Virus genome (UHGV): UHGV-0293518
From: a virus
Reading direction: 5' to 3' (one strand)
Length of the DNA: 11,933 nt
Below are positions 1 through 11,933 of the stretch, in pieces; within the stretch, counting starts at the first letter, position 1; each line of letters starts with the position of its first letter. The position numbers and the translations under genes were made by a program. The notes under the pieces are model-generated. The model did not search any database. It was not told where the DNA came from and saw only the letters and a program-made list of their open reading frames with translations.

Positions 1-362
1 CTTAACTGATATCCCTTTTAACGGATAAAGGTATTCAAGCCTGACACATCATGCGCTGTATCGTCGCCGTATTCCCGTATTAACAGAGACCGTAGCCCGA
101 CGGGGAACTCCTTCTGCGCGAGTGTGCGGGAATAATCAAAAACGATGCACACCGGGTTTTTACCGCGTTTATGGTTCGCGGGTTTGTCCCTCATGCTCGC
201 CAGTCCTGTGCGGGGGTGGAAGAAACAGGACACTTACACTGATTCTTGTGGGCACGATGCTATGCCTTTCTGGATTATCCCGATGCCATTCATGCAAGGC
301 GTTGTATCAGACGTTCGTCAGAGCTGTCAGGCTGACGGGTCCTCCCGGTGGGGTGGCCTGCC

Positions 363-383
363 ACGGGGCGGGAGCGTCGCGGA
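363..383. promoter_or_regulatory. Candidate cos site (cosN-like terminase nicking region)
   Basis: ACGGGGCGG...TCGCGG at 363-382 resembles the lambda cosN region (ACG-GGGCGGCGACCT-CGCGGG) as I recall it, with flanks matching and the centre diverged. It sits about 170-190 bp upstream of the small terminase start, the same geometry as lambda cosN to Nu1. Exact nick positions are not determinable from sequence. Confidence 0.4.
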
Positions 384-420
384 AAAAGGCTAGTTTTTGA
401 AATTTCATTCGTCATCACCA

Positions 421-457
421 CCACTGTAATAGATTGATATTACAGTGGTTTTATTTT
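421..457. repeat. Perfect 10-bp inverted repeat (CCACTGTAAT / ATTACAGTGG) with 8-nt loop, followed by a T-rich run; possible cosB-like terminase binding element or terminator
   Basis: Read directly: left arm 421-430, loop 431-438, right arm 439-448, then TTTTATTTTTATGG. Lies between the candidate cosN and the small terminase start. Confidence 0.5.
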
Positions 458-551
458 TATGGTGTCGATTTTGGTTGTTTTTTGTTCATCACTAACACCG
501 TTTGCCTAAAGTTGTTCGCGAGATGCATGTTTAAAACATTCTGGAGCGGGT

Positions 552-1046
552 ATGGATCGAGAGTTAAAAAATCTGACGCTGAATATCAGTCAACTGGCGG
601 CACTGTCAGGTGTACATCGCCAGACTGCTGCGGCAAGGCTGCAAAATCTACCCGTTGCAGGGGGGCATGAAAGCAACCTCAAGCTTTATCGGGTGGTTGA
701 TATTGTGTCGGCATTTCTGGCATTGCCACCGCCGGTTGCAGAAGGCGAAATGGACGCGCATGAGCGCAAAGCCTGGTATCAGTCTGAACGTGAGCGTCTT
801 AAGTTCGAACAGGAAACGGCACAACTCATTCCGGCCAGTGATGTCAGACGGGAGTTTGCCATCTGGGCAAAAGCGGTCGTGCAGGTGCTGGAGACATTAC
901 CGGATATTCTGGAACGTGACTGCGGTCTGCAGCCTGCCGCTGTGAGCCGTGTTCAGTCCATTATTGATGATCTGCGCGATCAGATAGCCCTGCGGGTGAC
1001 TGAAGCAGGTGCGGATGATGAGGAGGAATTACAGCAGGAGGAGTAA
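552..1046 (+). CDS. Terminase small subunit (DNA-packaging protein, not the lambda Nu1 sequence family)
   Basis: 164-aa ORF directly upstream of and overlapping (TAATG) the large terminase gene. GGAG lies 6-9 nt before the ATG. Has an N-terminal helix-turn-helix-like segment (LNISQLAALSGVHRQTAAARL) and an acidic C-terminal tail (DDEEELQQEE). Assignment is by position and architecture. Confidence 0.75.
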   Translation: MDRELKNLTLNISQLAALSGVHRQTAAARLQNLPVAGGHESNLKLYRVVDIVSAFLALPPPVAEGEMDAHERKAWYQSERERLKFEQETAQLIPASDVRREFAIWAKAVVQVLETLPDILERDCGLQPAAVSRVQSIIDDLRDQIALRVTEAGADDEEELQQEE

Positions 1047-3154
1047 TGCTGAATCAGGAAACCGCAAAGGCAGCACGAACCGATTCAGGTTATATCCTTC
1101 GCGCACCGAGACGAATGCGGGTTGCTGATGCCGTTGCTCAGTATATGCGGGTGCCCATGGGGGCAGGGAACTCAGTCCCGTGGGATCCGCTGGTGGCACC
1201 GTATGTTATTGAGCCGATGAACTGCCTGGCCTCGCGTGAATACGACGCAGTGATATTTGTTGGCCCGGCACGAACCGGCAAGACTATCGGCCTGATTGAC
1301 GGCTGGGTGATTTACAACGTGATTTGCGATCCTGCTGATATGCTGATTATTCAGATGACGGAGGAAAAAGCCCGCGAACACTCCAAAAAACGACTCGCCA
1401 GAACGTTTCGCGTCAGCCCGGAAGTGGTCAGTCGCCTGAGTCCGAACAAAAATGACAACAACGTTTATGACAGAACATTCCTTGCTGGTAACTACCTGAA
1501 AATCGGCTGGCCGTCAGTCAATATCATGTCCTCATCAGATTATAAATGCGTCGCGCTGACGGATTATGACCGTTTTCCGGAAGATATTGATGGCGAGGGG
1601 GATGCTTTCTCTCTTGCCTCAAAACGTACCACAACATTTATGTCCAGTGGTATGACGCTGGTGGAGAGTTCCCCCGGCAGAGATGTGAAGGATGTGAAAT
1701 GGCGACGGACTTCACCGCATGAGGCTCCACCAACCACGGGGATACTGTCGCTCTATAACCGTGGCGATCGCCGTCGCTGGTACTGGCCCTGTCCACACTG
1801 TGGTGAGTATTTTCAGCCCTGCGGCGATGTGGTTGCTGGTTTCCGTGATATTGCCGATCCCGTGCTGGCAAGTGAGGCGGCTTATATTCAGTGTCCTTCC
1901 TGTTCAGGACGGATTATGCCTGAACAAAAACGTGAGCTGAACGGACGTGGGGTCTGGTTGCGGGATGGTGAATCCATCAATGCGGATGGCAGTCGTTATG
2001 GTGATCCCCGACGCTCACGTATTGCGTCATTCTGGATGGAGGGTCCGGCAGCTGCTTACCAGACACTCTCGCAACTCGTTTACAAACTGCTTACTGCAGA
2101 ACAGGAATACGAGACAACCGGAAGTGAAGAAACACTCAAGACGGTTATCAATACCGACTGGGGATTACCTTATCTTCCCCGCGCCAGCATGGAGCAACGA
2201 AAAAGTGAACTGCTTGAGCAGCGGGCAGAGCCAGTTCCTTCCCGCAGTGTGCCGGATGGCGTTAATTTTCTTGTGGCGACAGTGGATGTGCAGGCGGGAC
2301 GTCATCGCCGTTTTGTGGTTCAGGTAACGGGCTATGGCAGCCGTGGCGAACGCTGGATTATTGATCGTTACAACATCACGCAGTCATTGCGCGGTGACAG
2401 CGACGGGGAGAGCCAGCGAATTGATCCGGCCAGCTATCCGGAAGACTGGGATGTCCTGCTGACGGATGTTTTTCATAAAAGCTGGCCGCTGGCCTCCGAT
2501 CCTTCTCAACAAATGCGACTGATGGCAATGGCGGTGGACTCCGGCGGTGAAGACGGGGTCACTGATAATGCCTATAAATTCTGGCGTCGTTGCCGTCGTG
2601 ATGGCCTTGGTAAACGTATTTACCTGTTTAAGGGCGACAGCATCCGGCGCGCAAAACTGATCACCCGTACATTCCCTGATAACACCGGACGAACGGGCCG
2701 ACGGGCGCAGGCCGCAGGTGATGTGCCGCTCTGGCTTCTTCAGACGGATGCACTGAAAGACCGGGTGAATAACGCGTTATGGCGTGACTCGCCAGGTCCC
2801 GGCTATGTGCATTTCCCTGACTGGCTGGGGAGCTGGTTTTACGACGAACTGACGTATGAAGAGCGGAGCAGTGACGGGAAATGGAGTAAGCCGGGTCGCG
2901 GTGCCAACGAAGCTTTTGACCTGATGGTGTATGCCGAGGCTCTGGTCATTCTGCATGGATACGAAAAGATCCGCTGGCCGGATGCACCGGAGTGGGCGAG
3001 CCGGGAAACCTGGCTGGAGTGTGTCCCGGACAGTATCGAACCGTCACCCTCACCCTCACCGGAACCGGTATCCACGCCTGTTAAAAAACAAAAACGGAAG
3101 AAAACAGTAACTGACGATGTTAACCCCTGGCTGACTTCCGGAGGATGGTTATGA
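1046..3154 (+). CDS. A: Terminase large subunit, gpA family
   Basis: 702-aa ORF. Walker A P-loop GPARTGKT at 1262-1285. CPHC...CPSC zinc-ribbon-like motif at 1790-1906, analogous to lambda gpA CPHC. Start overlaps the small terminase stop and the stop overlaps the next gene start (ATGA). Confidence 0.9.
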   Translation: MLNQETAKAARTDSGYILRAPRRMRVADAVAQYMRVPMGAGNSVPWDPLVAPYVIEPMNCLASREYDAVIFVGPARTGKTIGLIDGWVIYNVICDPADMLIIQMTEEKAREHSKKRLARTFRVSPEVVSRLSPNKNDNNVYDRTFLAGNYLKIGWPSVNIMSSSDYKCVALTDYDRFPEDIDGEGDAFSLASKRTTTFMSSGMTLVESSPGRDVKDVKWRRTSPHEAPPTTGILSLYNRGDRRRWYWPCPHCGEYFQPCGDVVAGFRDIADPVLASEAAYIQCPSCSGRIMPEQKRELNGRGVWLRDGESINADGSRYGDPRRSRIASFWMEGPAAAYQTLSQLVYKLLTAEQEYETTGSEETLKTVINTDWGLPYLPRASMEQRKSELLEQRAEPVPSRSVPDGVNFLVATVDVQAGRHRRFVVQVTGYGSRGERWIIDRYNITQSLRGDSDGESQRIDPASYPEDWDVLLTDVFHKSWPLASDPSQQMRLMAMAVDSGGEDGVTDNAYKFWRRCRRDGLGKRIYLFKGDSIRRAKLITRTFPDNTGRTGRRAQAAGDVPLWLLQTDALKDRVNNALWRDSPGPGYVHFPDWLGSWFYDELTYEERSSDGKWSKPGRGANEAFDLMVYAEALVILHGYEKIRWPDAPEWASRETWLECVPDSIEPSPSPSPEPVSTPVKKQKRKKTVTDDVNPWLTSGGWL

Positions 3155-3363
3155 ACCAGAATGATATCGAAGCCATGATTCAGCGTTATACGGAAGCTGA
3201 AATGGCGGTGCTGGACGGAAAATCCGTCACCTTTAATGGTCAGCAGATGACCATGGAAAACTTATCTGAGATCCGGCAGGGACGGCAGGAGTGGGAGCGC
3301 CGCCTTGCGGCTCTGATTACACGACGACGGGGGCATCCCGGGTACCGGCTGGCGAGGTTCTGA
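3151..3363 (+). CDS. W: Head-tail joining protein, gpW-like
   Basis: About 70 aa, immediately after the large terminase as in lambda. C-terminus ITRRRGHPGY resembles the lambda gpW C-terminus (RRRGPAGFYV) as I recall it. Start at 3151 is preferred over 3145 because GGAGG at 3140-3144 is then 6 nt upstream. Confidence 0.7.
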   Translation: MNQNDIEAMIQRYTEAEMAVLDGKSVTFNGQQMTMENLSEIRQGRQEWERRLAALITRRRGHPGYRLARF

Positions 3364-4871
3364 TGGCAATTCTTGATGATGTGATTGGCGTTTTTTCACC
3401 AGGATGGAAAGCGGCAAGGCTGCGTTCCCGTGCGGTGATCCAGGCTTATGAGGCCGTAAAAACGACGCGGACACACAAAGCCCGGCGGGAGAACCGAACT
3501 GCCGACCAGTTAAGCCAGTACGGGGCCGTGTCGTTACGTGAGCAGGCCCGTTACCTTGATAACAACCACGATCTGGTTATTGGTGTATTTGACAAGCTGG
3601 AAGAACGGGTGGTGGGGAAAAACGGGATTATTGTCGAGCCACATCCGGTATTACGCAATGGGGCCATTGCCCGTGATCTGGCAGCGGAGATTCGCACCCG
3701 ATGGAGTGAATGGTCTGTCAGCCCGGAAGTCACCGGGCAGTTTACCCGTCCGATGCTGGAACGTCTGATGCTGCGTACCTGGCTGCGCGATGGTGAGGTG
3801 TTTGCCCAGATGGTTTCCGGGCGCATAAACAGCCTGACGCCTTCTGCCGGTGTTCATTTCTGGCTGGAGGCGCTCGAGCCGGACTTTATTCCCATGACCA
3901 GTGATGAGAGCAACAGGCTGAATCAGGGCGTGTTTGTTGATGACTGGGGGCGTCCCGAAAAATATCTGGTGTATAAAAGCCGTCCCGTATCCGGACGGCA
4001 GATGGAAACCAAAGAAGTGGATGCAGAGCGAATGCTGCATCTTAAATTTGTTCGCCGTCTGCACCAGATGCGCGGGACGTCTTTGTTGTCCGGTGTGCTG
4101 ATCCGCCTCAGTGCCCTGAAAGATTATGAAGATTATGAGCTGACTGCAGCAAGGATCGCCGCTGCTCTGGGGATGTACATCCGCAAAGGCGACGGGCAGA
4201 GCTATGAACCGGATGGTAATGGCAGCAAGGATAAGGAACGCGAGCTTACCATTCAGCCAGGCATTATTTACGATGATCTGAAACCCGGCGAAGAAATCGG
4301 AATGGTGAAGTCGGATCGCCCCAATCCTAACCTTGAAACTTTTCGTAATGGTCAGTTGCGTGCCGTGGCGGCGGGCAGTCGTCTGAGTTTTTCCAGTACA
4401 GCGCGCAACTATAACGGCACTTACAGCGCCCAGCGTCAGGAGCTGGTTGAATCTACTGATGGCTACCTGATCCTGCAGGACTGGTTTATTGGTGCCGTCA
4501 CCCGCCCGATGTATCGTGCATGGCTGAAACAGGCTGTGGCATCCGGTGTTATCAGGCTACCCCGCGATCTTGACCGTTCTTCACTGTATACCGCGGTGTA
4601 TTCCGGACCAGTGATGCCGTGGATTGACCCTGTTAAGGAGGCTGAGGCCTGGAAAATCCAGATTCGTGGTGGAGCGGCGACAGAATCAGACTGGGTACGT
4701 GCTGGTGGTCGTAATCCGGATGATGTCAAACGTCGGCGCAAGGCCGAAATTGATGAAAACCGCAAGCTGGATCTGGTATTTGATACCGATCCGGCCAGTG
4801 ATAAAGGAGGCAGTAGTGCCGCAACGAAACGACAGGAGCCGCAGCACACCGACGACCAGTCCGAAGATTAA
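3363..4871 (+). CDS. B: Portal protein, lambda gpB-like
   Basis: 502-aa ORF in the portal position after W. Start taken at ATG 3363 (MAILDDVIG...), which overlaps the W stop as TGATG and has GAGG upstream. The ORF-track start at 3291 is an in-frame upstream ATG inside W. Confidence 0.85.
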   Translation: MAILDDVIGVFSPGWKAARLRSRAVIQAYEAVKTTRTHKARRENRTADQLSQYGAVSLREQARYLDNNHDLVIGVFDKLEERVVGKNGIIVEPHPVLRNGAIARDLAAEIRTRWSEWSVSPEVTGQFTRPMLERLMLRTWLRDGEVFAQMVSGRINSLTPSAGVHFWLEALEPDFIPMTSDESNRLNQGVFVDDWGRPEKYLVYKSRPVSGRQMETKEVDAERMLHLKFVRRLHQMRGTSLLSGVLIRLSALKDYEDYELTAARIAAALGMYIRKGDGQSYEPDGNGSKDKERELTIQPGIIYDDLKPGEEIGMVKSDRPNPNLETFRNGQLRAVAAGSRLSFSSTARNYNGTYSAQRQELVESTDGYLILQDWFIGAVTRPMYRAWLKQAVASGVIRLPRDLDRSSLYTAVYSGPVMPWIDPVKEAEAWKIQIRGGAATESDWVRAGGRNPDDVKRRRKAEIDENRKLDLVFDTDPASDKGGSSAATKRQEPQHTDDQSED

Positions 4872-4884
4872 TTCCTGGTTCAGG

Positions 4885-5697
4885 ATGCAGGCTGGTCACC
4901 AGAGTGACGCGGATATTTATATTTATGACGAGATTGGTTTCTGGGGTGTTACAGCGAAGCAGTTTATCAGTGATCTGAATGCACTGGGCGATATCACCCA
5001 CATTAATCTCCATATCAATTCACCGGGTGGCGATGTCTTTGAAGGCATCGCCATTTTTAATGCGCTGAAAACACATGGTGCGTCCATTACCGTTTATGTC
5101 GACGGTGTGGCGGCGTCAATGGCGTCGGTCATTGCGATGGTGGGAAATCTGAACAGCCTTGATACCCGTATGGTGCCACAGGCCAGCGCATGGGCGATAA
5201 ACCGTGTGGCACAGAAAGCGGTCTCGGTTGCCACCCGGCAGGTTGCCGGGAATACCGTTGCGGGAGATAACCAGGTGAAAGGGATACCCCTGAAACTGGT
5301 ACGTCAGCGTGTCCGGGTGTTTAAAGCCAGTCCGTCAGGAAAAATGACGGCCAGGATCCGCGTTAACCGGGGCAATCTGCCTGCCATTAAGCTGGGGACC
5401 GCCCGGGTCAGACTGACCCGGCGTGGTGGAAAACTGCAGTACCGTGGCAGCGTGCTGAAGGTGGGTAAATATCTTTTCCGGGATGCGTTTATTCAGCAAC
5501 TGGCGAATGGTCGCTGGCATGTGATGCGGCGTATTGATGGCAAAAATCGTTACCCCATTGATGTGGTGAAAATCCCTCTGTCCGGACCGCTGACACAGGC
5601 ATTTGAAGATGCCCGCGACCGCATCATTGCTGCGGAAATGCCGAAACAGCTGGGGTATGCACTGAAACAACAACTGAGGTTATGGCTGACCCGATGA
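4885..5697 (+). CDS. Chimeric ORF: N-terminal fragment of ClpP-like prohead protease fused in frame to a gpZ-like tail completion protein (deletion remnant, probably non-functional as a protease)
   Basis: Residues 1-87 carry ClpP/S14-type prohead protease motifs (IYIYDEIG, INSPGGDVFEGIAIFNAL, GVAASMASVIAMVG). From about nt 5146 the sequence (NLNSLDTRMVPQASAWAINRV ... RIRVNRGNLPAIKLGTARV ... QQLANGRWHVMRRIDGKNRYPIDVVKIP ... LGYALKQQLRLW) follows lambda gpZ as I recall it. Ends with ATGA overlap onto U, as Z/U do in lambda. Start chosen at ATG 4885 just after the portal stop. Confidence 0.65.
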   Translation: MQAGHQSDADIYIYDEIGFWGVTAKQFISDLNALGDITHINLHINSPGGDVFEGIAIFNALKTHGASITVYVDGVAASMASVIAMVGNLNSLDTRMVPQASAWAINRVAQKAVSVATRQVAGNTVAGDNQVKGIPLKLVRQRVRVFKASPSGKMTARIRVNRGNLPAIKLGTARVRLTRRGGKLQYRGSVLKVGKYLFRDAFIQQLANGRWHVMRRIDGKNRYPIDVVKIPLSGPLTQAFEDARDRIIAAEMPKQLGYALKQQLRLWLTR

Positions 5698-6095
5698 ACC
5701 GACATACACAAATCCGCCAGGTCGTACTGGCACGCCTTCGGGAACAGTGTGGAGACAGCGCCACGTTTTTTGACGGGCTTCCGGCATTTGTTGATGCGCA
5801 GGAACTGCCTGCCGTGGCGGTGTGGCTGAGTGATGCTCAGTACACCGGAAAAATGACGGATGAAGATGACTGGCAGGCTGTTCTGCATATTGCTGTCTTC
5901 ATCCGGGCACAGGCACCGGATTCAGAGCTGGATATGTGGATGGAGAGCACCATTTTCCCGGCCCTGAATGATGTACCGGCACTTTCCGGACTCATCGACA
6001 CCCTGATCCCACTCGGTTTTAACTATCAACGTGATAATGAGATGGCCACCTGGGCGATGGCGGAAATCACGTACCAGATCACGTACACGAATTAA
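5694..6095 (+). CDS. U: Tail tube terminator protein, lambda gpU-like
   Basis: Strong similarity to lambda gpU as recalled (ATFFDG, ELPAVAV, DWQAVLHIAVF, DSELDMWMES, ALSGLI, ITYQITY). Start at ATG 5694 overlaps the preceding stop and matches the lambda N-terminus (MNRHTQIRQVVL vs MKHTELRAAVL). An alternative upstream ATG exists at 5682. Confidence 0.85.
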   Translation: MNRHTQIRQVVLARLREQCGDSATFFDGLPAFVDAQELPAVAVWLSDAQYTGKMTDEDDWQAVLHIAVFIRAQAPDSELDMWMESTIFPALNDVPALSGLIDTLIPLGFNYQRDNEMATWAMAEITYQITYTN

Positions 6096-6105
6096 GGAGG
6101 TGGCA

Positions 6106-6849
6106 ATGACCACACCAAATCCACTGGCAAAAACGAAAGGTGCGGGAACGACGTTCTGGATGTACACCGGCAAGGGCGATGCGTTTGCGAACCCTTTATC
6201 GGACACTGACTGGCTGCGTCTTGCGATGGTGAAGGATCTGCAGCCTGGCGAAATGACCGCTGATGCAGAAGATGACACTTATCTCGATGATGAAGATGCA
6301 GACTGGAAAACGACAACCCAGGGGCAGAAATCCGTCGGTGATACTTCGGCGACGCTGGCCTGGCGTCCGGGTGACAGCGGGCAGAAAAAACTGGTTCAGT
6401 TGTTCGACTCCGGTGAAGTCTGCGCGTTTCGTATCAAATATCCCAACGGTACTGTTGATGTTTTCCGTGGCTGGCTGAGTTCACTGGGTAAAACCATTGC
6501 CTCAAAAGACGTGATGACCCGCACAGTGAAAATCAGCGGTGTGGGGCGTCCGTATCTGGCAGAAGAAGGCACTGAAACCGTGGGCGTTACCGGGCTGACG
6601 GTGGCACCGGCATCTGCCAGTGTAAAAGTGGGAGCAACCACCACGCTGACCTTTACAGTAAAACCTGACGGAGCCAGTGACAAAGCGATCAGTGTGCATT
6701 CGACAGATCCACAGACTGCCACGGTGACCCTGAACGGGCTTGTGGCCACGGTGAAAGGCGTGAAGCAGGGCAGTGTCAGCATTGTGGGCATGACTTCTGA
6801 CGGCGATTTTGTGGCAGTGGCTACGGTGGCTGTCAGCGCCGCAGGTTAA
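6106..6849 (+). CDS. V: Major tail tube protein, lambda gpV-like, with C-terminal Ig-like (Big_2-type) domain
   Basis: N-terminal region is close to lambda gpV as recalled (KGAGTT, ANPLSD, YLDDEDADW, QGQKS, GDTS, TLAW, PNGTVDVFRGW, RTVK, VGRP). The C-terminal ~90 aa are Thr/Val/Ser-rich, typical of the Ig-like decoration domain. AGGAGG lies 6 nt before ATG 6106. Confidence 0.9.
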   Translation: MTTPNPLAKTKGAGTTFWMYTGKGDAFANPLSDTDWLRLAMVKDLQPGEMTADAEDDTYLDDEDADWKTTTQGQKSVGDTSATLAWRPGDSGQKKLVQLFDSGEVCAFRIKYPNGTVDVFRGWLSSLGKTIASKDVMTRTVKISGVGRPYLAEEGTETVGVTGLTVAPASASVKVGATTTLTFTVKPDGASDKAISVHSTDPQTATVTLNGLVATVKGVKQGSVSIVGMTSDGDFVAVATVAVSAAG

Positions 6850-6869
6850 CAGGACGATACTCATCATTT

Positions 6870-6893
6870 GCCCCGATTATCCGGGGCTTTTTT
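6870..6893 (+). terminator. Intrinsic-terminator-like hairpin between V and G (GCCCCG-ATTATC-CGGGGC followed by TTTTTT)
   Basis: Read directly: 6-bp GC-rich stem 6870-6875 / 6882-6887, 6-nt loop, U-run 6888-6893, about 20 nt after the V stop. Could attenuate transcription after the abundant major tail protein. Confidence 0.5.
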
Positions 6894-6906
6894 GCAGGTG
6901 GAGAAC

Positions 6907-7296
6907 ATGATGTTTCTGAAACAGGGCACGTTTAATTATGAAAAGCAGTCCGTGGTGCTCAGTGAGCTGTCCGGGCTGCAGAGAATTGAATATCTGGCGT
7001 TTGTTCAGCAGCGAACGGCAAAGTTTGATGCCGAAGAGGGAGAACTGCCGGAGGCTGAACGACAGATTGCTTTTCTGCGGATGGGGATGGATATCAATGC
7101 CTGGCTGGTTTCCCGCTCACTGTGGAATGCGGATCAGTCTAAGGATGTAGAGACGCTTTGCGCATCCGTTATTACAACATGGTCGTATGATGCCCTGGGT
7201 GCGGGGGCGGAGATGGTTCTGTCGCTGAGCGGTATGGGGACCATTGATAATGCCGGGGATGATGAGCATGAGGCGCTGACGCCGGAAAAGTCCTGA
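6907..7296 (+). CDS. G: Tail assembly chaperone, lambda gpG-like
   Basis: MFLK...LSELSGLQRIEYLAF...TTW...LSGM parallels lambda gpG as recalled. Start at ATG 6907 (or 6910) has a GGTGGAG Shine-Dalgarno upstream. The ORF-track start at 6868 lies inside the terminator hairpin and is unlikely. Confidence 0.85.
   Translation: MMFLKQGTFNYEKQSVVLSELSGLQRIEYLAFVQQRTAKFDAEEGELPEAERQIAFLRMGMDINAWLVSRSLWNADQSKDVETLCASVITTWSYDALGAGAEMVLSLSGMGTIDNAGDDEHEALTPEKS
7284..7290 (+). promoter_or_regulatory. Candidate -1 programmed ribosomal frameshift site for G-T fusion (GGAAAAG)
   Basis: The T reading frame is -1 relative to G and is open only from 7272. G stops at 7294-7296, so the shift must occur within 7272-7293. 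The only slippery-like sequence there is G GAA AAG (the lambda site is G GGA AAG), where the A-site Lys codon AAG can re-pair with AAA. Confidence 0.5.
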
Positions 7297-7634
7297 CGCG
7301 GGAAATGCAGTTTGTCATGCGGCTTGCCCGGGAGTTCCGGCGGGCAGACTGGCGGCGGATGCTGTCGGAAATGTCGGCCACTGAGCTTGGTGAGTGGGGC
7401 GATTATTTCCGGATGCAGAGCTTCAGTGATGTGTGGATGGATGCGCAGTTTGCCTCGCTGAAGGCATTGATCGTGAGAATGGTGTCCGGCAGTAGTGATG
7501 CTGCGGTGGCTGATTTCAGCCTTTTACCGGAAGAGAACGGGATACCGGAGCGAACGGACGAAGAACTGATGCATCTTGGGGAAGGTATTTCCGGAGGTGT
7601 GCGTTATGGACCAGATAGCCAACCTGGTCATTGA
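7290..7634 (+). CDS. T: Tail assembly protein gpT-like, expressed as a G-T fusion by -1 frameshift (T-frame portion)
   Basis: The -1 frame downstream of G encodes ...MRLAREFRRADWRRML...GEGISGGVRYGP, resembling lambda gpT as recalled (MRLAREFRRPDWRAML ... GIAGGVRYG). There is no convincing independent start or Shine-Dalgarno, which fits frameshift-dependent expression as in lambda. The 3' end overlaps the H start. Confidence 0.7.
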   Translation, partial: VLTREMQFVMRLAREFRRADWRRMLSEMSATELGEWGDYFRMQSFSDVWMDAQFASLKALIVRMVSGSSDAAVADFSLLPEENGIPERTDEELMHLGEGISGGVRYGPDSQPGH

Positions 7635-10563
7635 TTTGGGGATTGATGCGGCAGAGTTTAAAAATGAAATCCCCCGTATCAAAAACCTTCTGAATGGTGC
7701 AGCCAGCGATGCAGAACGGTCTTCTGCCCGTATGCAGCGTTTTATGGAGCGTCAGACTCAGGCCGCCCGGCAGACAACGCAGGCGGCTTCTTCGGCTGCA
7801 ACAGCCGCATCCGTCCATGCGCAGACGGTGGAGAAGAACGCACAGGCTCATGAACGCATGGCCCGCGAGGTGGAGAAAACCCGCCAGCGCATGGAGGCGC
7901 TGAGCCAGAAAATGCGCGAGGAACAGGCGCAGGCCATGGCTCTGGCGGAGGCTCAGGATAAAGCAGCTGCTGCGTTTTATCGTCAGATTGACAGTGTGAA
8001 ACAGGCCAGTGCGGGGCTGCAGGAATTACAGCGTATTCAGCAGCAGATCCGACAGGCCAGAAACAGTGGCGGGATTGGTCAGCAGGATTATCTGGCGCTG
8101 ATTTCTGAGGTTACGGCGAAAACCCGTGTTCTTACGCAGGCTGAGGAAGAGTCTACCCGACAGAAAGTGGCGTTTATCCGTCAGCTTAAAGAGCAGGCAA
8201 CCCGCCAGAATCTTTCTTCTTCTGAGTTGCTTCGTGCCAGGGCTGCCCAGCTGGGGGTAAGCAGTGCTGCAGAAGTGTATATCCGCAAAATGGAGCAGGC
8301 AGGAAAAGCCACGCATTCGCTGGGTCTGAAAAGTGCAGCAGCCCGCCAGGAGATAGGCGTTCTGATAGGTGAACTGGCCCGTGGCAATTTAGGAGCGCTG
8401 AGGGGATCCGGGATAACGCTGGCTAACCGTGCCGGATGGATAGACACACTGATGTCACCGAAAGGCATGATGCTGGGCGGGGTTATTGGCGGTATTGCCG
8501 CGGCCGTCTATGGTCTGGGTAAAGCCTGGTATGACGGTCAGAAGGAGGGGGAAGAATTTAACCGCCAGCTGTCACTGACGGGGCATTATGCCGGAGTCAC
8601 TGCCGGGCAGCTGTGGACGCTCAGTCGTGCTATTTCCGGGAATGGTATCACGCAACATGCTGCAGCCGGTGCGCTGGCTCAGGTGGTGGGGAGTGGTGCA
8701 TTTCGTGGAAACGATATCGGTATGGTGGCGAGAGCTGCCGCACAGATGGAGCGATCGGTTGGCCAGTCGGTCAGCGATACCATAAATCAGTTTAAGCGGC
8801 TGAAGGATGATCCTGTAAATGCCGCGAAGGCTCTGGACAATGAGCTGCATTTTCTTACTGCCACTCAGCTTGAGCAGATACGCGTCCTTGGGGATCAGGG
8901 GCGGTCCAGTGATGCTGCACGGATAGCCATGTCTGCACTGGCAGAGGAAACCGGTCGGCGTACTGCGGATATTGATAATAACCTCAATGCGCTGGGCAGT
9001 ACGCTGAAGTATCTGTCTGATTTATGGAGTCGTTTCTGGGATGCGGCCATGAATATTGGTCGTGAAGACTCGCTGGATGAACAGATTGCCGCTTTACAGG
9101 AGAAAGTGTCGCGGGCGAAAAGACTCCCCTGGACGGCATCATCTTCTCAGGTTGAATACGATCAGCAGCGTCTTAACGATCTTCAGGAGAAAAAACGCCA
9201 GAAGGATTTGCAGGATGCAAAAGAGCAGGCAGAGCGGAATTATCAGGAGCAACAGAAACGCCGTAATGCTGAAAATGCTGCACTGAACCGGATGAATGAA
9301 ACGGAAGCTGCACGACATCAGCGTGAAATTGCGCGTATTAATGCCATGCAGTACGCCGATCAGGCTGTCAGGGATGCGGCGATACAACGTGAAAATGAAC
9401 GTTACGAGAAAGCCCTGGCATCCGGTAAGAAAAAAACACGCGAAACCCGTAATGATGAGGCCACCCGGTTATTGCTGCAGTACAGTCAGCAACAGGCACA
9501 GGTGGAAGGACAGATTGCTGCTGCCAGACAGTCAGCAGGCATTGCCACGGAAAGGATGACAGAAGCGCATAAACAGCTTCTGGCTCTGCAGCAGCGCATC
9601 AGCGACCTGGACGGGAAAAAACTGACGGCAGATGAAAAGAGTGTGCTGGCCCGTAAAGATGAACTGATTCAGGCACTGACGCTGCTGGATGTAAAACAGC
9701 AGGAGCTTCAGAAACAGACGGCACTCAACGAGCTGAAGAAAAAAACAATTCAGCTGACCAGTCAACTGGCTGAAGAAGAGCGCGCTCAGCGTCAGCAACA
9801 TGACCTGGATATCGCCACGGTGGGTATGGGTGATCAGCAGCGACAGCGATATCAGGTACAACTGAGTCTTCGCCAGAAATACCAGCAACAGCTGGAGCAG
9901 TTGAGGCGGGATAGTGAGCAGAAAGGGACATATAACACGGATGACTACAGAAAGGCCGAGCAGGCGCTGACGGAGAGCCTGAACCGACAACTGAATGAGA
10001 ATCGCCGTTACTGGCAACAGCTTGAAGTTGTGCAGGGTAACTGGAAAAACGGAGTCCTGCGTGCATTTCAGGATTTTACCGTGGATGCAGATAATACGGC
10101 AGAAACAGCAGAACAGGTGTTCTCGTCAGCCTTCAGCAACATGGGAAATGGCCTGGCAACTTTTGTCACTACCGGCAAACTCAATTTCAAATCCTTCACC
10201 TCTTCTGTGCTGTCAGATATGGCGAAAATCCTGGCGCAGGCAACCATGATGAAATCGATAAAAGGGATTGGCAGTGTATCAGAGCCGAAAGTGGTGACAG
10301 TGAAGCTGGGCGATGGTTATGAACAGCGTCGTGCGGCGGGACTGAATAACCAGTTGTCGACTTACAGCGTGACGATACGTGTTCGTAAATGTGAACACCC
10401 ATCTTTAAAAGCCTTTCTGGAACGGCACGGTGGCGTCCGTGCATTTCAGTGGACGCCACCTTATGACTGGAAACCGATCAGGGTGGTTTGTCGTAAATGG
10501 TCGGCAAGCGTGGGGGCGCTGTGGGTAACCATAACGGCAGATTTTGAACAGGTCGTGGCATAG
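7606..10563 (+). CDS. H: Tape measure protein (gpH-like) fused in frame to the C-terminal ~95 aa of minor tail protein gpM-like (H-M chimeric ORF)
   Basis: N-terminus MDQIANLVIDLGIDAAEF parallels lambda gpH (MAEPVGDLVVDLSLDAARF) as recalled. The body is a long Q/A/E/R-rich coiled-coil-like region with a Gly-rich hydrophobic patch (MMLGGVIGGIAAAVYGLGKAWYDG). From about nt 10276 the sequence (VSEPKVVTVKLGDGYEQRRAAGLNNQLSTYSVT...FLERHGGVRAFQWTPPYDWKPIRVVCRKWS...ADFEQVVA) follows lambda gpM. GGAGGTG lies 8 nt before ATG 7606. No separate M gene exists before L. Confidence 0.8.
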   Translation: MDQIANLVIDLGIDAAEFKNEIPRIKNLLNGAASDAERSSARMQRFMERQTQAARQTTQAASSAATAASVHAQTVEKNAQAHERMAREVEKTRQRMEALSQKMREEQAQAMALAEAQDKAAAAFYRQIDSVKQASAGLQELQRIQQQIRQARNSGGIGQQDYLALISEVTAKTRVLTQAEEESTRQKVAFIRQLKEQATRQNLSSSELLRARAAQLGVSSAAEVYIRKMEQAGKATHSLGLKSAAARQEIGVLIGELARGNLGALRGSGITLANRAGWIDTLMSPKGMMLGGVIGGIAAAVYGLGKAWYDGQKEGEEFNRQLSLTGHYAGVTAGQLWTLSRAISGNGITQHAAAGALAQVVGSGAFRGNDIGMVARAAAQMERSVGQSVSDTINQFKRLKDDPVNAAKALDNELHFLTATQLEQIRVLGDQGRSSDAARIAMSALAEETGRRTADIDNNLNALGSTLKYLSDLWSRFWDAAMNIGREDSLDEQIAALQEKVSRAKRLPWTASSSQVEYDQQRLNDLQEKKRQKDLQDAKEQAERNYQEQQKRRNAENAALNRMNETEAARHQREIARINAMQYADQAVRDAAIQRENERYEKALASGKKKTRETRNDEATRLLLQYSQQQAQVEGQIAAARQSAGIATERMTEAHKQLLALQQRISDLDGKKLTADEKSVLARKDELIQALTLLDVKQQELQKQTALNELKKKTIQLTSQLAEEERAQRQQHDLDIATVGMGDQQRQRYQVQLSLRQKYQQQLEQLRRDSEQKGTYNTDDYRKAEQALTESLNRQLNENRRYWQQLEVVQGNWKNGVLRAFQDFTVDADNTAETAEQVFSSAFSNMGNGLATFVTTGKLNFKSFTSSVLSDMAKILAQATMMKSIKGIGSVSEPKVVTVKLGDGYEQRRAAGLNNQLSTYSVTIRVRKCEHPSLKAFLERHGGVRAFQWTPPYDWKPIRVVCRKWSASVGALWVTITADFEQVVA

Positions 10564-10572
10564 GAGGCTCTG

Positions 10573-11271
10573 ATGCAGGATATTCCACAGGAAACACATC
10601 ATGAGACGACACGCCTCACTCAGTCAGCCCAGGTGGTGCTCTGGGAAATCGATCTGACAGAGGTCGGTGGTGAACGTTATTTTTTCTGTAATGAGCAGAA
10701 CGAAAAAGGTGAGCCGGTTACCTGGCAGGGGCGGCAGTATCAGGCATACCCCATTCAGGGGACAGGATTTGAACTGAACGGCAAGGGCAGTGCTGCCCGT
10801 CCGACACTGACGGTTTCTAACCTGCACGGTATGGTCACCGGGATGGCGGAAGATCTGCAGAGTCTGGTCGGCGGAACGGTGGTCCGGCGTAAGGTTTACG
10901 CCCGTTTTCTGGATGCGGTGAACTTCGTCAACGGAAACAGTGACGCCGACCCGGAGCAGGAGGTGATCAGCCGCTGGCGCATCGAGCAGTGCAGCGAACT
11001 GAGCGCGGTCAGTGCCTCTTTTGTACTGGCCACGCCGACGGAAACGGACGGCGCTGTTTTTCCGGGACGTATCATGCTGGCCAACACCTGCACCTGGACC
11101 TATCGCGGCGATGAGTGCGGTTATCACGGTCCGGCGGTCGCGGATGAATATGACCAGCCAACGTCCGATATCACGAAGGATAAATGCAGCAAATGCCTGA
11201 GCGGTTGTAAGTTCCGCAATAACGTCGGCAACTTTGGCGGCTTCCTTTCCATTAACAAACTTTCGCAGTAA
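10573..11271 (+). CDS. L: Minor tail protein, lambda gpL-like (C-terminal Cys cluster)
   Basis: 232 aa, the same length as lambda gpL, in the correct position. C-terminal cysteine cluster (CTWTYRGDECGYHG ... KCSKCLSGCK) at 11089-11208 is consistent with the Fe-S-binding region described for gpL. AGGAGG lies 5 nt before the ATG. Confidence 0.9.
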   Translation: MQDIPQETHHETTRLTQSAQVVLWEIDLTEVGGERYFFCNEQNEKGEPVTWQGRQYQAYPIQGTGFELNGKGSAARPTLTVSNLHGMVTGMAEDLQSLVGGTVVRRKVYARFLDAVNFVNGNSDADPEQEVISRWRIEQCSELSAVSASFVLATPTETDGAVFPGRIMLANTCTWTYRGDECGYHGPAVADEYDQPTSDITKDKCSKCLSGCKFRNNVGNFGGFLSINKLSQ

Positions 11272-11276
11272 ATCCC

Positions 11277-11933
11277 ATGACAGAAACAGAATCAGCGATT
11301 CTGGCGCACGCCCGGCGATGTGCGCCAGCGGAGTCGTGCGGCTTCGTGGTGAGAACGCCGGAGGGAGAAAGATATTTTCCCTGCGTGAATATCTCCGGTG
11401 AGCCGGAGGAGTATTTCCGGATGTCGCCGGAGGACTGGCTGCGGGCAGAAATGCAGGGTGAGATTGTGGCGCTGGTCCACAGCCACCCCGGTGGTCTGCC
11501 CTGGCTGAGTGAGGCTGACCGGCGGCTGCAGGTGCAGAGTGATTTGCCGTGGTGGCTGGTCTGCCGGGGTGAGATTCATAAATTCCGCTGTGTGCCGCAT
11601 CTCACCGGGCGGCGCTTTGAGCACGGGGTGACGGACTGTTACACGCTGTTCCGGGATGCTTACCATCTGGCGGGGATTGAGATGCCGGATTTTCATCGCG
11701 GGGATGACTGGTGGCGTAACGGTCAGAATCTCTATCTGGATAATCTGGAGGCCACAGGGCTGTATCAGGTGCCGTTGTCAGCGGCGCAGCCGGGCGATGT
11801 GCTGCTGTGCTGTTTTGGTTCATCGGTGCCGAATCATGCCGCTATTTACTGCGGCGACGGCGAGCTGCTGCACCATATTCCTGAACAACTGAGCAAACGA
11901 GAGAGGTATACAGGTCTGCCAGCAAACAGTACC
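11277..11933 (+). CDS. K: Tail assembly protein, lambda gpK-like (MPN/JAMM plus NlpC/P60 domains), 3' end truncated by the window
   Basis: My translation from ATG 11277 (MTETESAILAHARRCAPAESCGFVV...VALVHSHPGGLPWLSEADRRLQVQSDLPWWLVCRG...GVTDCYTLFRDAYHLAG...NHAAIYCGDGELLHHIPEQLSKRERYT) is nearly identical to lambda gpK as I recall it. The ORF is open to the last base of the window. It is absent from the ORF track, presumably because no stop falls inside the window. Confidence 0.9.
   Translation, partial: MTETESAILAHARRCAPAESCGFVVRTPEGERYFPCVNISGEPEEYFRMSPEDWLRAEMQGEIVALVHSHPGGLPWLSEADRRLQVQSDLPWWLVCRGEIHKFRCVPHLTGRRFEHGVTDCYTLFRDAYHLAGIEMPDFHRGDDWWRNGQNLYLDNLEATGLYQVPLSAAQPGDVLLCCFGSSVPNHAAIYCGDGELLHHIPEQLSKRERYTGLPANST

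What the first reader, a model, noticed from the sequence alone, without database searches (positions are those of the whole stretch)
4885..5697. Capsid gene block missing: in-frame fusion of a truncated prohead protease to tail completion protein Z
Lambdoid phages carry the full protease, scaffold, decoration protein, major capsid protein and head completion genes (typically 4-5 kb) between portal and Z. Here the portal stop (4871) and the U start (5694) are only ~0.8 kb apart. The single ORF between them begins as a ClpP-like protease (residues 1-87) and switches at about nt 5143-5148 to gpZ-like sequence lacking roughly its first 11 residues. The junction is in frame, so translation and coupling into U are preserved. 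The element therefore cannot build its own capsid, yet keeps terminase, portal and a tail gene set.
Basis: partly seen in the sequence, partly recalled or inferred. Interest (0 to 1): 0.85.

Follow-up and report, generated by a model that had tools for sequence, protein, structure and literature searches.

The report
Capsid genes deleted from decaying prophage
A 2.4-kb deletion in an E. coli lambda-like prophage removed the capsid genes and welded a stump of the head protease gene in frame to tail gene Z; it is one of three fresh deletions in an ordinary decaying prophage, not a new kind of element.

Summary
Between the portal stop (4871) and the U start (5694) there is one ORF (ATG 4885, or more likely GTG 4816, to 5697). 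Its N-terminus is a ClpP-like prohead-protease fragment and the rest is tail protein Z from codon 10.

Intact relatives (E. coli LR-25 and IAI39 prophages, phage mEp460) place the junction at 5145|5148, with a 2-bp microhomology (AA). The deletion is 2,414 bp, not 4-5 kb, because this lineage has a compact head module. It removes most of a single protease/scaffold/major-capsid gene, the decoration gene, an FII-like gene and nine Z codons.

A 437-bp deletion fuses tape measure H to M (10276-10278). A roughly 8-kb deletion fuses K to the tail-fibre assembly gene (11908-11911), removing I, J, lom and stf.

No junction was found in any other collection searched. Flanking DNA is 100% identical to LR-25, so the lesions are recent and private.

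Similar one-off fusions to Z occur in other public contigs, including an independent protease-Z fusion.

Best reading: a cryptic prophage decaying by microhomology-mediated deletion, with a non-functional chimeric ORF. Low interest. The only oddity is that all three fusions are in frame (1/27 by chance).

The parts
552..1046 (+). DUF1441 protein in the small-terminase (Nu1) position
   Evidence: Pfam DUF1441, 141 bits. mEp460 annotates the equivalent gene as terminase small subunit.
1046..3154 (+). Terminase large subunit (gpA-like), apparently intact, 702 aa
   Evidence: Pfam GpA_ATPase plus GpA_nuclease. It differs from LR-25 by scattered SNPs and a 6-bp indel in a Ser-Pro repeat at 3047-3053.
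3151..3363 (+). W-like head-tail adaptor gene
   Evidence: Position and annotation in IAI39 and mEp460. ORF listed.
3363..4871 (+). Portal protein (lambda family), apparently intact, 502 aa
   Evidence: Pfam Phage_portal_2, 276 bits. 99.8-99.9% DNA identity to portal genes of many E. coli prophages.
4816..5145 (+). 5' remnant of the ClpP-like prohead protease/scaffold/major capsid gene (first 110 of 675 codons from GTG 4816; 87 codons from ATG 4885). Catalytic Ser codon at 5116-5118; the His and Asp regions are deleted.
   Evidence: The ClpP alignment shows the His motif MMIHKP lying beyond the junction. Ser position.
5146..5147 (.). Deletion junction 1: 2-bp microhomology (AA). 2,414 bp are missing relative to LR-25, IAI39 and mEp460.
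   Evidence: blastn and three-way junction print-outs.
5146..5697 (+). Tail completion gene Z from codon 10 to the stop, 100% identical to LR-25 Z
5694..6095 (+). Tail terminator U (ATGA overlap with the Z stop)
   Evidence: Pfam Phage_tail_U, 204 bits. PGAP coordinates.
6106..6849 (+). Major tail protein V with a C-terminal Big_2 domain
   Evidence: Pfam Phage_TTP_12 plus Big_2.
6910..7634 (+). Tail assembly chaperones G (6910-7296) and T (7305-7634)
   Evidence: Coordinates transferred from the IAI39 annotation.
7606..10563 (+). In-frame fusion of tape measure H (lacking about its last 131 residues) to M (lacking its first 14). Junction at 10276-10278 (GTA); 437 bp deleted.
   Evidence: Pfam TMP_2, Tape_meas_lam_C and Phage_min_tail in one ORF. 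Junction mapping.
10573..11271 (+). Minor tail protein L, intact
   Evidence: Pfam Phage_tail_L, 330 bits.
11277..11933 (+). K (C40 peptidase) codons 1-211 fused in frame to the tail fibre assembly gene tfa (from about codon 36). Junction at 11908-11911 (ATAC); about 7,973 bp deleted (rest of K, I, J, lom, stf, 5' end of tfa). The ORF runs off the window.
   Evidence: The junction is absent from all 5,426 complete E. coli genomes.

Best explanation
The window is the late (morphogenesis) region of a lambdoid E. coli prophage of the mEp460/cdtI type that has recently suffered three illegitimate, microhomology-mediated deletions.

Deletion 1 (2,414 bp) joined codon 110 (from GTG 4816; codon 87 from ATG 4885) of the single protease/scaffold/major-capsid gene to codon 10 of Z. 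It removed the capsid, decoration and FII-like genes. The resulting 270/293-aa ORF is a chimeric pseudogene product. Its protease stump keeps the catalytic Ser but lacks the His and Asp, so it cannot be an active ClpP-type protease. Its Z part carries a foreign N-terminal extension.

Deletions 2 and 3 wreck the tail module (H-M fusion; K-tfa fusion with loss of I, J and stf). The element can therefore build neither heads nor tails. At most it could be packaged with help from a related co-resident prophage.

Shown here: the deletions, their endpoints and their privacy. Inferred: loss of function of the fusion proteins, the deletion mechanism (replication slippage or alternative end joining), and that the in-frame outcome is chance.
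For: - Domains: the two halves of the ORF hit two different Pfam families.
- Parent sequences: both halves match adjacent parts of intact prophages at 99.8-100% DNA identity but 2,414 bp apart. The viable phage mEp460 has portal, protease/MCP, decoration, FII-like, Z, U, V in that interval.
- Microhomology: the junctions carry 2, 3 and 4 bp. The joint probability under random splicing is about 1.2e-4.
- Recency: window 5146-10278 and 10276-11911 are 100% identical to LR-25.
- Privacy: junction 1 was not found in 5,426 complete E. coli genomes, GTDB representatives, IMG/VR, JGI metagenomes, phage records or plasmid records. Junction 2 was not found in IMG/VR or JGI metagenomes, and junction 3 was not found in IMG/VR or the complete E. 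coli genomes. The fusion proteins are absent from a collection of 15 billion proteins.
- Precedent in sequence data: comparable one-off deletion fusions of the same prophage family occur in other assemblies. L006 is an independent protease/MCP-Z fusion. L008 has a 15-kb deletion. L009 has four deletions, of which only 1 of 3 unselected junctions is in frame.
- Active site: the catalytic His lies beyond the junction.
- Literature: head-defective lambdoid prophages are common in E. coli (PMC2669165).
Against: Three of three deletions are in frame, each at a codon shared by both parents (N, V, T); chance gives 1/27.

Three deletions with no accompanying substitutions in 6.8 kb is a lot of damage in a short time.

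The sequence was not found in any public collection searched, so its origin and read support cannot be checked.
Confidence: 0.8

Rival explanations
1. The deletions are not biological. The sequence would be an assembly or sequencing chimera, a laboratory construct or a synthetic/edited sequence, and the source organism carries an ordinary prophage.
For: None of the three junctions, nor the fusion proteins, was found in any collection searched. E. coli genomes carry several near-identical prophages (median 3 places per genome), which invites misassembly. Public short-read contigs contain odd one-off Z chimeras, some probably artefacts, such as P0056 with Z followed by FII in the wrong order. 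Three in-frame joins would suit deliberate design.
Against: k-mer assemblers join at long exact repeats, and here only 2-4 bp are shared. That microhomology exceeds what arbitrary cut-and-paste would give (p about 1e-4) and is typical of natural illegitimate recombination. Engineered deletions usually remove whole genes or leave scars. The SNP pattern in the left part looks like natural mosaicism.
Confidence: 0.12
2. The in-frame fusions are selected products. A domesticated prophage remnant would express chimeric structural proteins (protease-Z, H-M, K-Tfa) that poison virion assembly of superinfecting or co-resident related phages. Alternatively, a capsid-less hitch-hiker would keep cos, terminase and portal and be packaged in a helper's capsids.
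For: All three fusions are in frame. Terminase, portal and the upstream cos-side region look intact. Head-defective lambdoid prophages can be packaged by co-resident prophages (PMC2669165). Related helpers are common in E. coli.
Against: There is no conservation at all: each junction is unique to this sequence, and other Z fusions are singletons with different junctions. In the comparable multi-deleted locus L009, unselected junctions are in frame only 1 of 3 times. There is zero divergence from the intact relative, so no time for selection to be visible. No dedicated promoter-like site was found near the fusion. Late genes are silent in a lysogen.
Confidence: 0.05

Closest known systems
Intact lambdoid prophages and phages of the mEp460/cdtI type (E. 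coli LR-25 NZ_AP027500.1 1,944,003-1,967,209; IAI39 NC_011750.1; phage mEp460 NC_019716)
   Same: Same gene order and 99-100% DNA identity for terminase, portal, Z, U, V, G, T, H, M, L and K.
   Different: They contain the 2,414-bp head block, the 437-bp H/M segment and the roughly 8-kb K-I-J-lom-stf-tfa segment that the window lacks.
Defective lambdoid prophages of E. coli O157 Sakai (Sp4, Sp9, Sp13, Sp15; Asadulghani et al. 2009, PMC2669165)
   Same: Lambdoid prophages with deletions or disruptions in head-formation and other morphogenesis genes. Some keep packaging functions and are complemented in trans.
   Different: Different prophages and lesions. No trans-complementation is shown for this element. 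Here the lesions are three clean microhomology deletions that all happen to give in-frame fusions.
Logan contig SRR30357571_86 (L006), protein P0093
   Same: Terminase, W, portal, then a protease/MCP-Z fusion ORF, then U, V, G, T, H. This is an independent loss of the capsid block that fuses the same two genes in frame.
   Different: A different prophage lineage (81% identity over the best local alignment, which covers 37% of the query) and different breakpoints: about 281 residues of protease/scaffold joined to Z at about residue 85, giving 388 aa.
Phage satellites and tailocins (PICI / cf-PICI / P4; F-type pyocins)
   Same: Elements carrying only part of a virion gene set.
   Different: Those are conserved, evolved architectures with their own regulation and interference genes (satellites) or a complete tail module without packaging genes (tailocins). 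This element is a private deletion derivative with a broken tail module that retains terminase and portal.

Membership tests
Minor_tail_Z (lambda gpZ, PF06763), C-terminal 183 residues of the ORF | Sequence match to the family profile above the curated threshold over essentially its full length | tested here: met
   238.4 bits against a cut-off of 23.9; profile 8-190 of 190. 100% DNA identity to LR-25 Z from codon 10. The first 9 residues are missing.
ClpP-like (S14) prohead protease (PF00574), N-terminal part of the ORF | Complete protease domain | tested here: not met
   The match covers only profile positions 29-111 of 182.
ClpP-like (S14) prohead protease (PF00574), N-terminal part of the ORF | Ser-His-Asp catalytic residues | tested here: not met
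   The Ser motif GVAASMAS is kept (nt 5116-5118). The His motif MMIHKP and everything after it lie beyond the junction in the intact protein.
Functional lambdoid morphogenesis operon | Complete head genes (protease/scaffold/MCP, decoration, FII-like) | tested here: not met
   The head block is absent.
Functional lambdoid morphogenesis operon | Complete tail genes (Z, U, V, G, T, H, M, L, K, I, J) | tested here: not met
   H-M are fused. K is truncated and fused to tfa. I, J and stf are absent.
Defective (cryptic) prophage | Prophage-derived genes carrying inactivating lesions relative to functional relatives | tested here: met
   Three deletions relative to intact prophages and to the viable phage mEp460. 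Chromosomal integration itself was not seen, because the window holds no attachment site or host flank.
Phage satellite (PICI / cf-PICI / P4-like) | Conserved partial virion gene set recurring across genomes | tested here: not met
   The junction is absent from all collections searched.
Phage satellite (PICI / cf-PICI / P4-like) | Own integrase, regulation and helper-interference genes | not testable with these tools
   The early, regulatory and integration regions lie outside the window.
F-type tailocin | Complete flexible-tail module | tested here: not met
   The tail module is broken, with no I, J or fibre genes.
F-type tailocin | No head or packaging genes | tested here: not met
   Terminase and portal are present.

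The most novel reading that the evidence does not exclude
The three in-frame chimeras (protease-Z, H-M, K-Tfa) are not accidents. They would be selected 'poison subunits' of a domesticated prophage remnant that sabotage head-tail joining and tail assembly of related superinfecting phages, or the element would be a capsid-less hitch-hiker packaged by a helper prophage through its retained cos/terminase/portal.
Probability: 0.04. Interest if true: 0.6.

Novelty: new member of a known kind. Interest (0 to 1): 0.15.

Why it matters
It matters little beyond annotation. The 270/293-aa ORF should be called a chimeric pseudogene, and the prophage should be scored as defective in both head and tail. 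It should not be reported as a new capsid-less element.

The case gives a clean, datable snapshot of prophage decay: three microhomology deletions with no accompanying substitutions. Together with the other one-off fusions found, it shows that the head-tail boundary of this common E. coli prophage family is repeatedly hit by deletions. Only if the in-frame pattern proved to be selected would it bear on prophage domestication or anti-phage interference.

Tried and rejected
- **Single-family explanation.** Rejected. Two Pfam families hit separate halves, and no database protein covers the whole ORF with the same junction.
- **Finding the source or other carriers.** Junction 1 was searched in GTDB representative genomes, IMG/VR and JGI metagenomes. 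Junction 2 was searched in IMG/VR and JGI metagenomes. Junction 3 was searched in IMG/VR. All gave 0 hits. Exact look-up of both forms of the fusion protein and of H-M gave nothing. Phage and plasmid collections had no record spanning the junction.
- **Short-query test for junction 2 in E. coli genomes.** Uninformative, because the tool joins pieces 437 bp apart.
- **Solved structure for Z.** None found by sequence, so the role of the lost N-terminus could not be judged.
- **Systematic in-frame bias.** Checked in another multi-deleted locus (L009). Only 1 of 3 unselected junctions is in frame, so no bias is supported.
- **Tailocin or satellite readings.** Rejected on gene content and lack of conservation.
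- **Promoter scan around the fusion.** No promoter-like site found.
- **Structure prediction.** Not run, because it would not change the verdict.

Full report
**What is in the window.** The ORF list and Pfam scan show the late operon of a lambdoid phage on the + strand:
- DUF1441 protein in the small-terminase position, 552-1046
- terminase large subunit, 1046-3154
- W-like adaptor, 3151-3363
- portal, 3363-4871
- one ORF ending at 5697
- U, 5694-6095
- V, 6106-6849
- G and T, 6910-7634
- a 985-aa ORF, 7606-10563
- L, 10573-11271
- an ORF from 11277 that runs off the end of the window

**Check of the observation.** The ORF between portal and U (ATG 4885 to 5697, 270 aa) hits two unrelated Pfam families. 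CLP_protease matches residues 23-105 (59 bits, profile positions 29-111 of 182 only). Minor_tail_Z matches residues 86-270 (238 bits, profile 8-190 of 190). So it is a fusion and not a member of one family.

A search of 5.8 billion protein clusters found no protein that spans the ORF with this junction. The best matches are ordinary 192-aa Z proteins covering 62% of the query.

**Mapping the deletion.** Megablast against 5,426 complete E. coli genomes split the region exactly. Window 5146-6200 matches Z-U-V of many prophages at 100%. Window 3400-5145 matches the portal plus the 5' end of a 'ClpP-like prohead protease/major capsid protein fusion protein' gene at 99.8-99.9%. No genome holds the two together.

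In IAI39 (L001) and LR-25 (L005) the two parts lie 2,414 bp apart. The three-way print-out gives:
- left parent: ...GGTGGGAAA|CCCGG
- right parent: ...ATCCGCAA|TCTGAAC
- window: ...GGTGGGAAATCTGAAC

The junction is therefore 5145|5148, with AA (5146-5147) shared by both parents.

PGAP starts the protease gene at a GTG that corresponds to window 4816. It lies 5 nt after AAGGAGG and overlaps the portal 3' end. The mEp460 annotation uses the ATG that corresponds to 4885. The chimeric ORF is thus 293 or 270 aa.

An alignment of the intact protease domain to ClpP structures shows the Ser motif (GVAASMAS; Ser codon 5116-5118) before the junction and the His motif (MMIHKP) after it. The stump therefore cannot carry a ClpP-type catalytic triad.

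**The surroundings change the picture.** The same alignments reveal two more deletions.

A 437-bp deletion joins tape measure H, minus about 131 C-terminal residues, to M, minus 14 N-terminal residues. The junction is at 10276-10278 (GTA shared). Pfam finds TMP_2, Tape_meas_lam_C and Phage_min_tail in one ORF.

At 11908-11911 (ATAC shared) the K gene stops matching. The last 22 bases of the window are from a tail fibre assembly gene: exact in L003, and one mismatch in LR-25 tfa at L005 41733. This implies a deletion of about 7,973 bp that removes the rest of K, I, J, lom, stf and the start of tfa. The K'-'Tfa reading frame stays open to the window end.

The element can therefore make neither heads nor tails.

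**Are the deletions real events?** Microhomologies of 2, 3 and 4 bp are jointly unlikely for arbitrary splicing (about 1.2e-4). They are typical of replication slippage or alternative end joining; that attribution rests on established knowledge and was not tested here. They are far too short for k-mer assembly collapse.

The DNA on either side is 100% identical to LR-25 over 5,133 and 1,636 bp. The differences further left are scattered SNPs and a 6-bp repeat indel that look like normal mosaicism.

None of the junctions was found in the collections searched:
- complete E. coli genomes: junction 1 and junction 3
- GTDB representative genomes: junction 1
- IMG/VR: all three junctions
- JGI metagenomes: junctions 1 and 2
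- phage and plasmid records: junction 1 region
- a collection of 15 billion proteins: both fusion proteins

For junction 2, complete E. coli genomes gave no clean test, though every listed best hit carries the undeleted form.

The lesions are therefore private and very recent, or the sequence is not a faithful copy of a genome. That cannot be decided without reads.

**The in-frame oddity.** All three deletions give in-frame fusions at a codon shared by both parents (N, V, T). By chance this is 1/27.

I looked for a systematic effect. The protein search turned up seven singleton Z proteins with foreign domains among the top 120 clusters. Their contigs include:
- L006, an independent protease/MCP-Z fusion with other breakpoints, in a prophage whose fusion protein is 81% identical to the query over the aligned part
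- L007, a 62-bp FII-Z deletion whose right breakpoint is the same nucleotide in Z as in the window
- L008, a 15,115-bp Dam-Z deletion
- L009, the same prophage family with four deletions of 11,930, 2,023, 528 and 10,115 bp

The Z fusions were found through a protein search, so they are in frame by ascertainment. Of the three unselected junctions in L009, only one is in frame. There is thus no support for a general in-frame bias, and I treat the 3/3 as chance while recording it as unexplained.

**Mechanism and function.** The most likely account (about 0.8) is ordinary decay of a cryptic prophage by deletion, leaving chimeric pseudogenes.

Head-defective lambdoid prophages are well documented in E. 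coli O157 Sakai. Some of them are still packaged with proteins supplied by co-resident prophages (PMC2669165). With its apparently intact terminase and portal, this element could in principle be rescued in the same way. Nothing here shows that.

The rivals are an artefactual or engineered sequence (about 0.12) and a selected function for the fusions, either as assembly poisons or as a hitch-hiker (about 0.05).

**Novelty and score.** The kind of object, a defective lambdoid prophage lacking head genes, is known. This particular set of lesions is new but private. I rate it a new member of a known kind, with interest 0.15.

Noticed in passing
window 7606-10563 (junction 10276-10278): Tape measure H is fused in frame to minor tail protein M by a 437-bp deletion with GTA microhomology. 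H loses about 131 C-terminal residues and M loses its first 14.
   Followed up: yes
window 11277-11933 (junction 11908-11911): K (C40 peptidase) is fused in frame to the tail fibre assembly gene. This implies a deletion of about 8 kb covering I, J, lom and stf. The last 22 bp of the window are tfa sequence.
   Followed up: yes
window 5146-5147, 10276-10278, 11908-11911: All three deletions are in frame and sit at a codon shared by both parent genes (N, V, T), which is 1/27 by chance. A comparable multi-deleted locus (L009) shows no such bias.
   Followed up: partly
L007 4744-4745 (ENA metagenome scaffold) versus window 5146: An unrelated contig has a 62-bp FII-Z in-frame deletion whose right-hand breakpoint is the very same nucleotide in Z (before TCTGAAC, AA microhomology) as in the window. 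This could be a deletion hot spot or a coincidence.
   Followed up: partly
L009 5603-5608, 6888-6891, 9584-9590, 13549-13555; L008 7300-7307; L006 3037-4203: Other public SRA-derived contigs carry heavily deleted derivatives of the same prophage family. L009 has four deletions, L008 a 15-kb Dam-Z fusion, and L006 an independent protease/MCP-Z fusion. All are singletons.
   Followed up: partly
window 4803-4818 and 4885: There are two candidate starts for the protease-derived ORF. GTG 4816 has a strong AAGGAGG 5 nt upstream and overlaps the portal 3' end by 56 nt (the PGAP choice in relatives). ATG 4885 is the choice in the mEp460 annotation.
   Followed up: partly
L005 23813-25840 (E. coli LR-25): In LR-25, whose prophage is 100% identical to the window from 5146 to 11911 apart from the deletions, the protease/major capsid gene is annotated as a pseudogene with an internal stop. 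This very similar undeleted copy may therefore also be head-defective.
   Followed up: no
window 119-520 and 3047-3053: SNPs relative to LR-25 cluster in the non-coding stretch upstream of the DUF1441 gene (the likely cos side). A 6-bp indel lies in a Ser-Pro repeat near the terminase C-terminus.
   Followed up: no
window 6870-6887: A GC-rich hairpin followed by a T run lies just after V. It is in the same place as the rho-independent terminator annotated after the major tail gene of mEp460.
   Followed up: no
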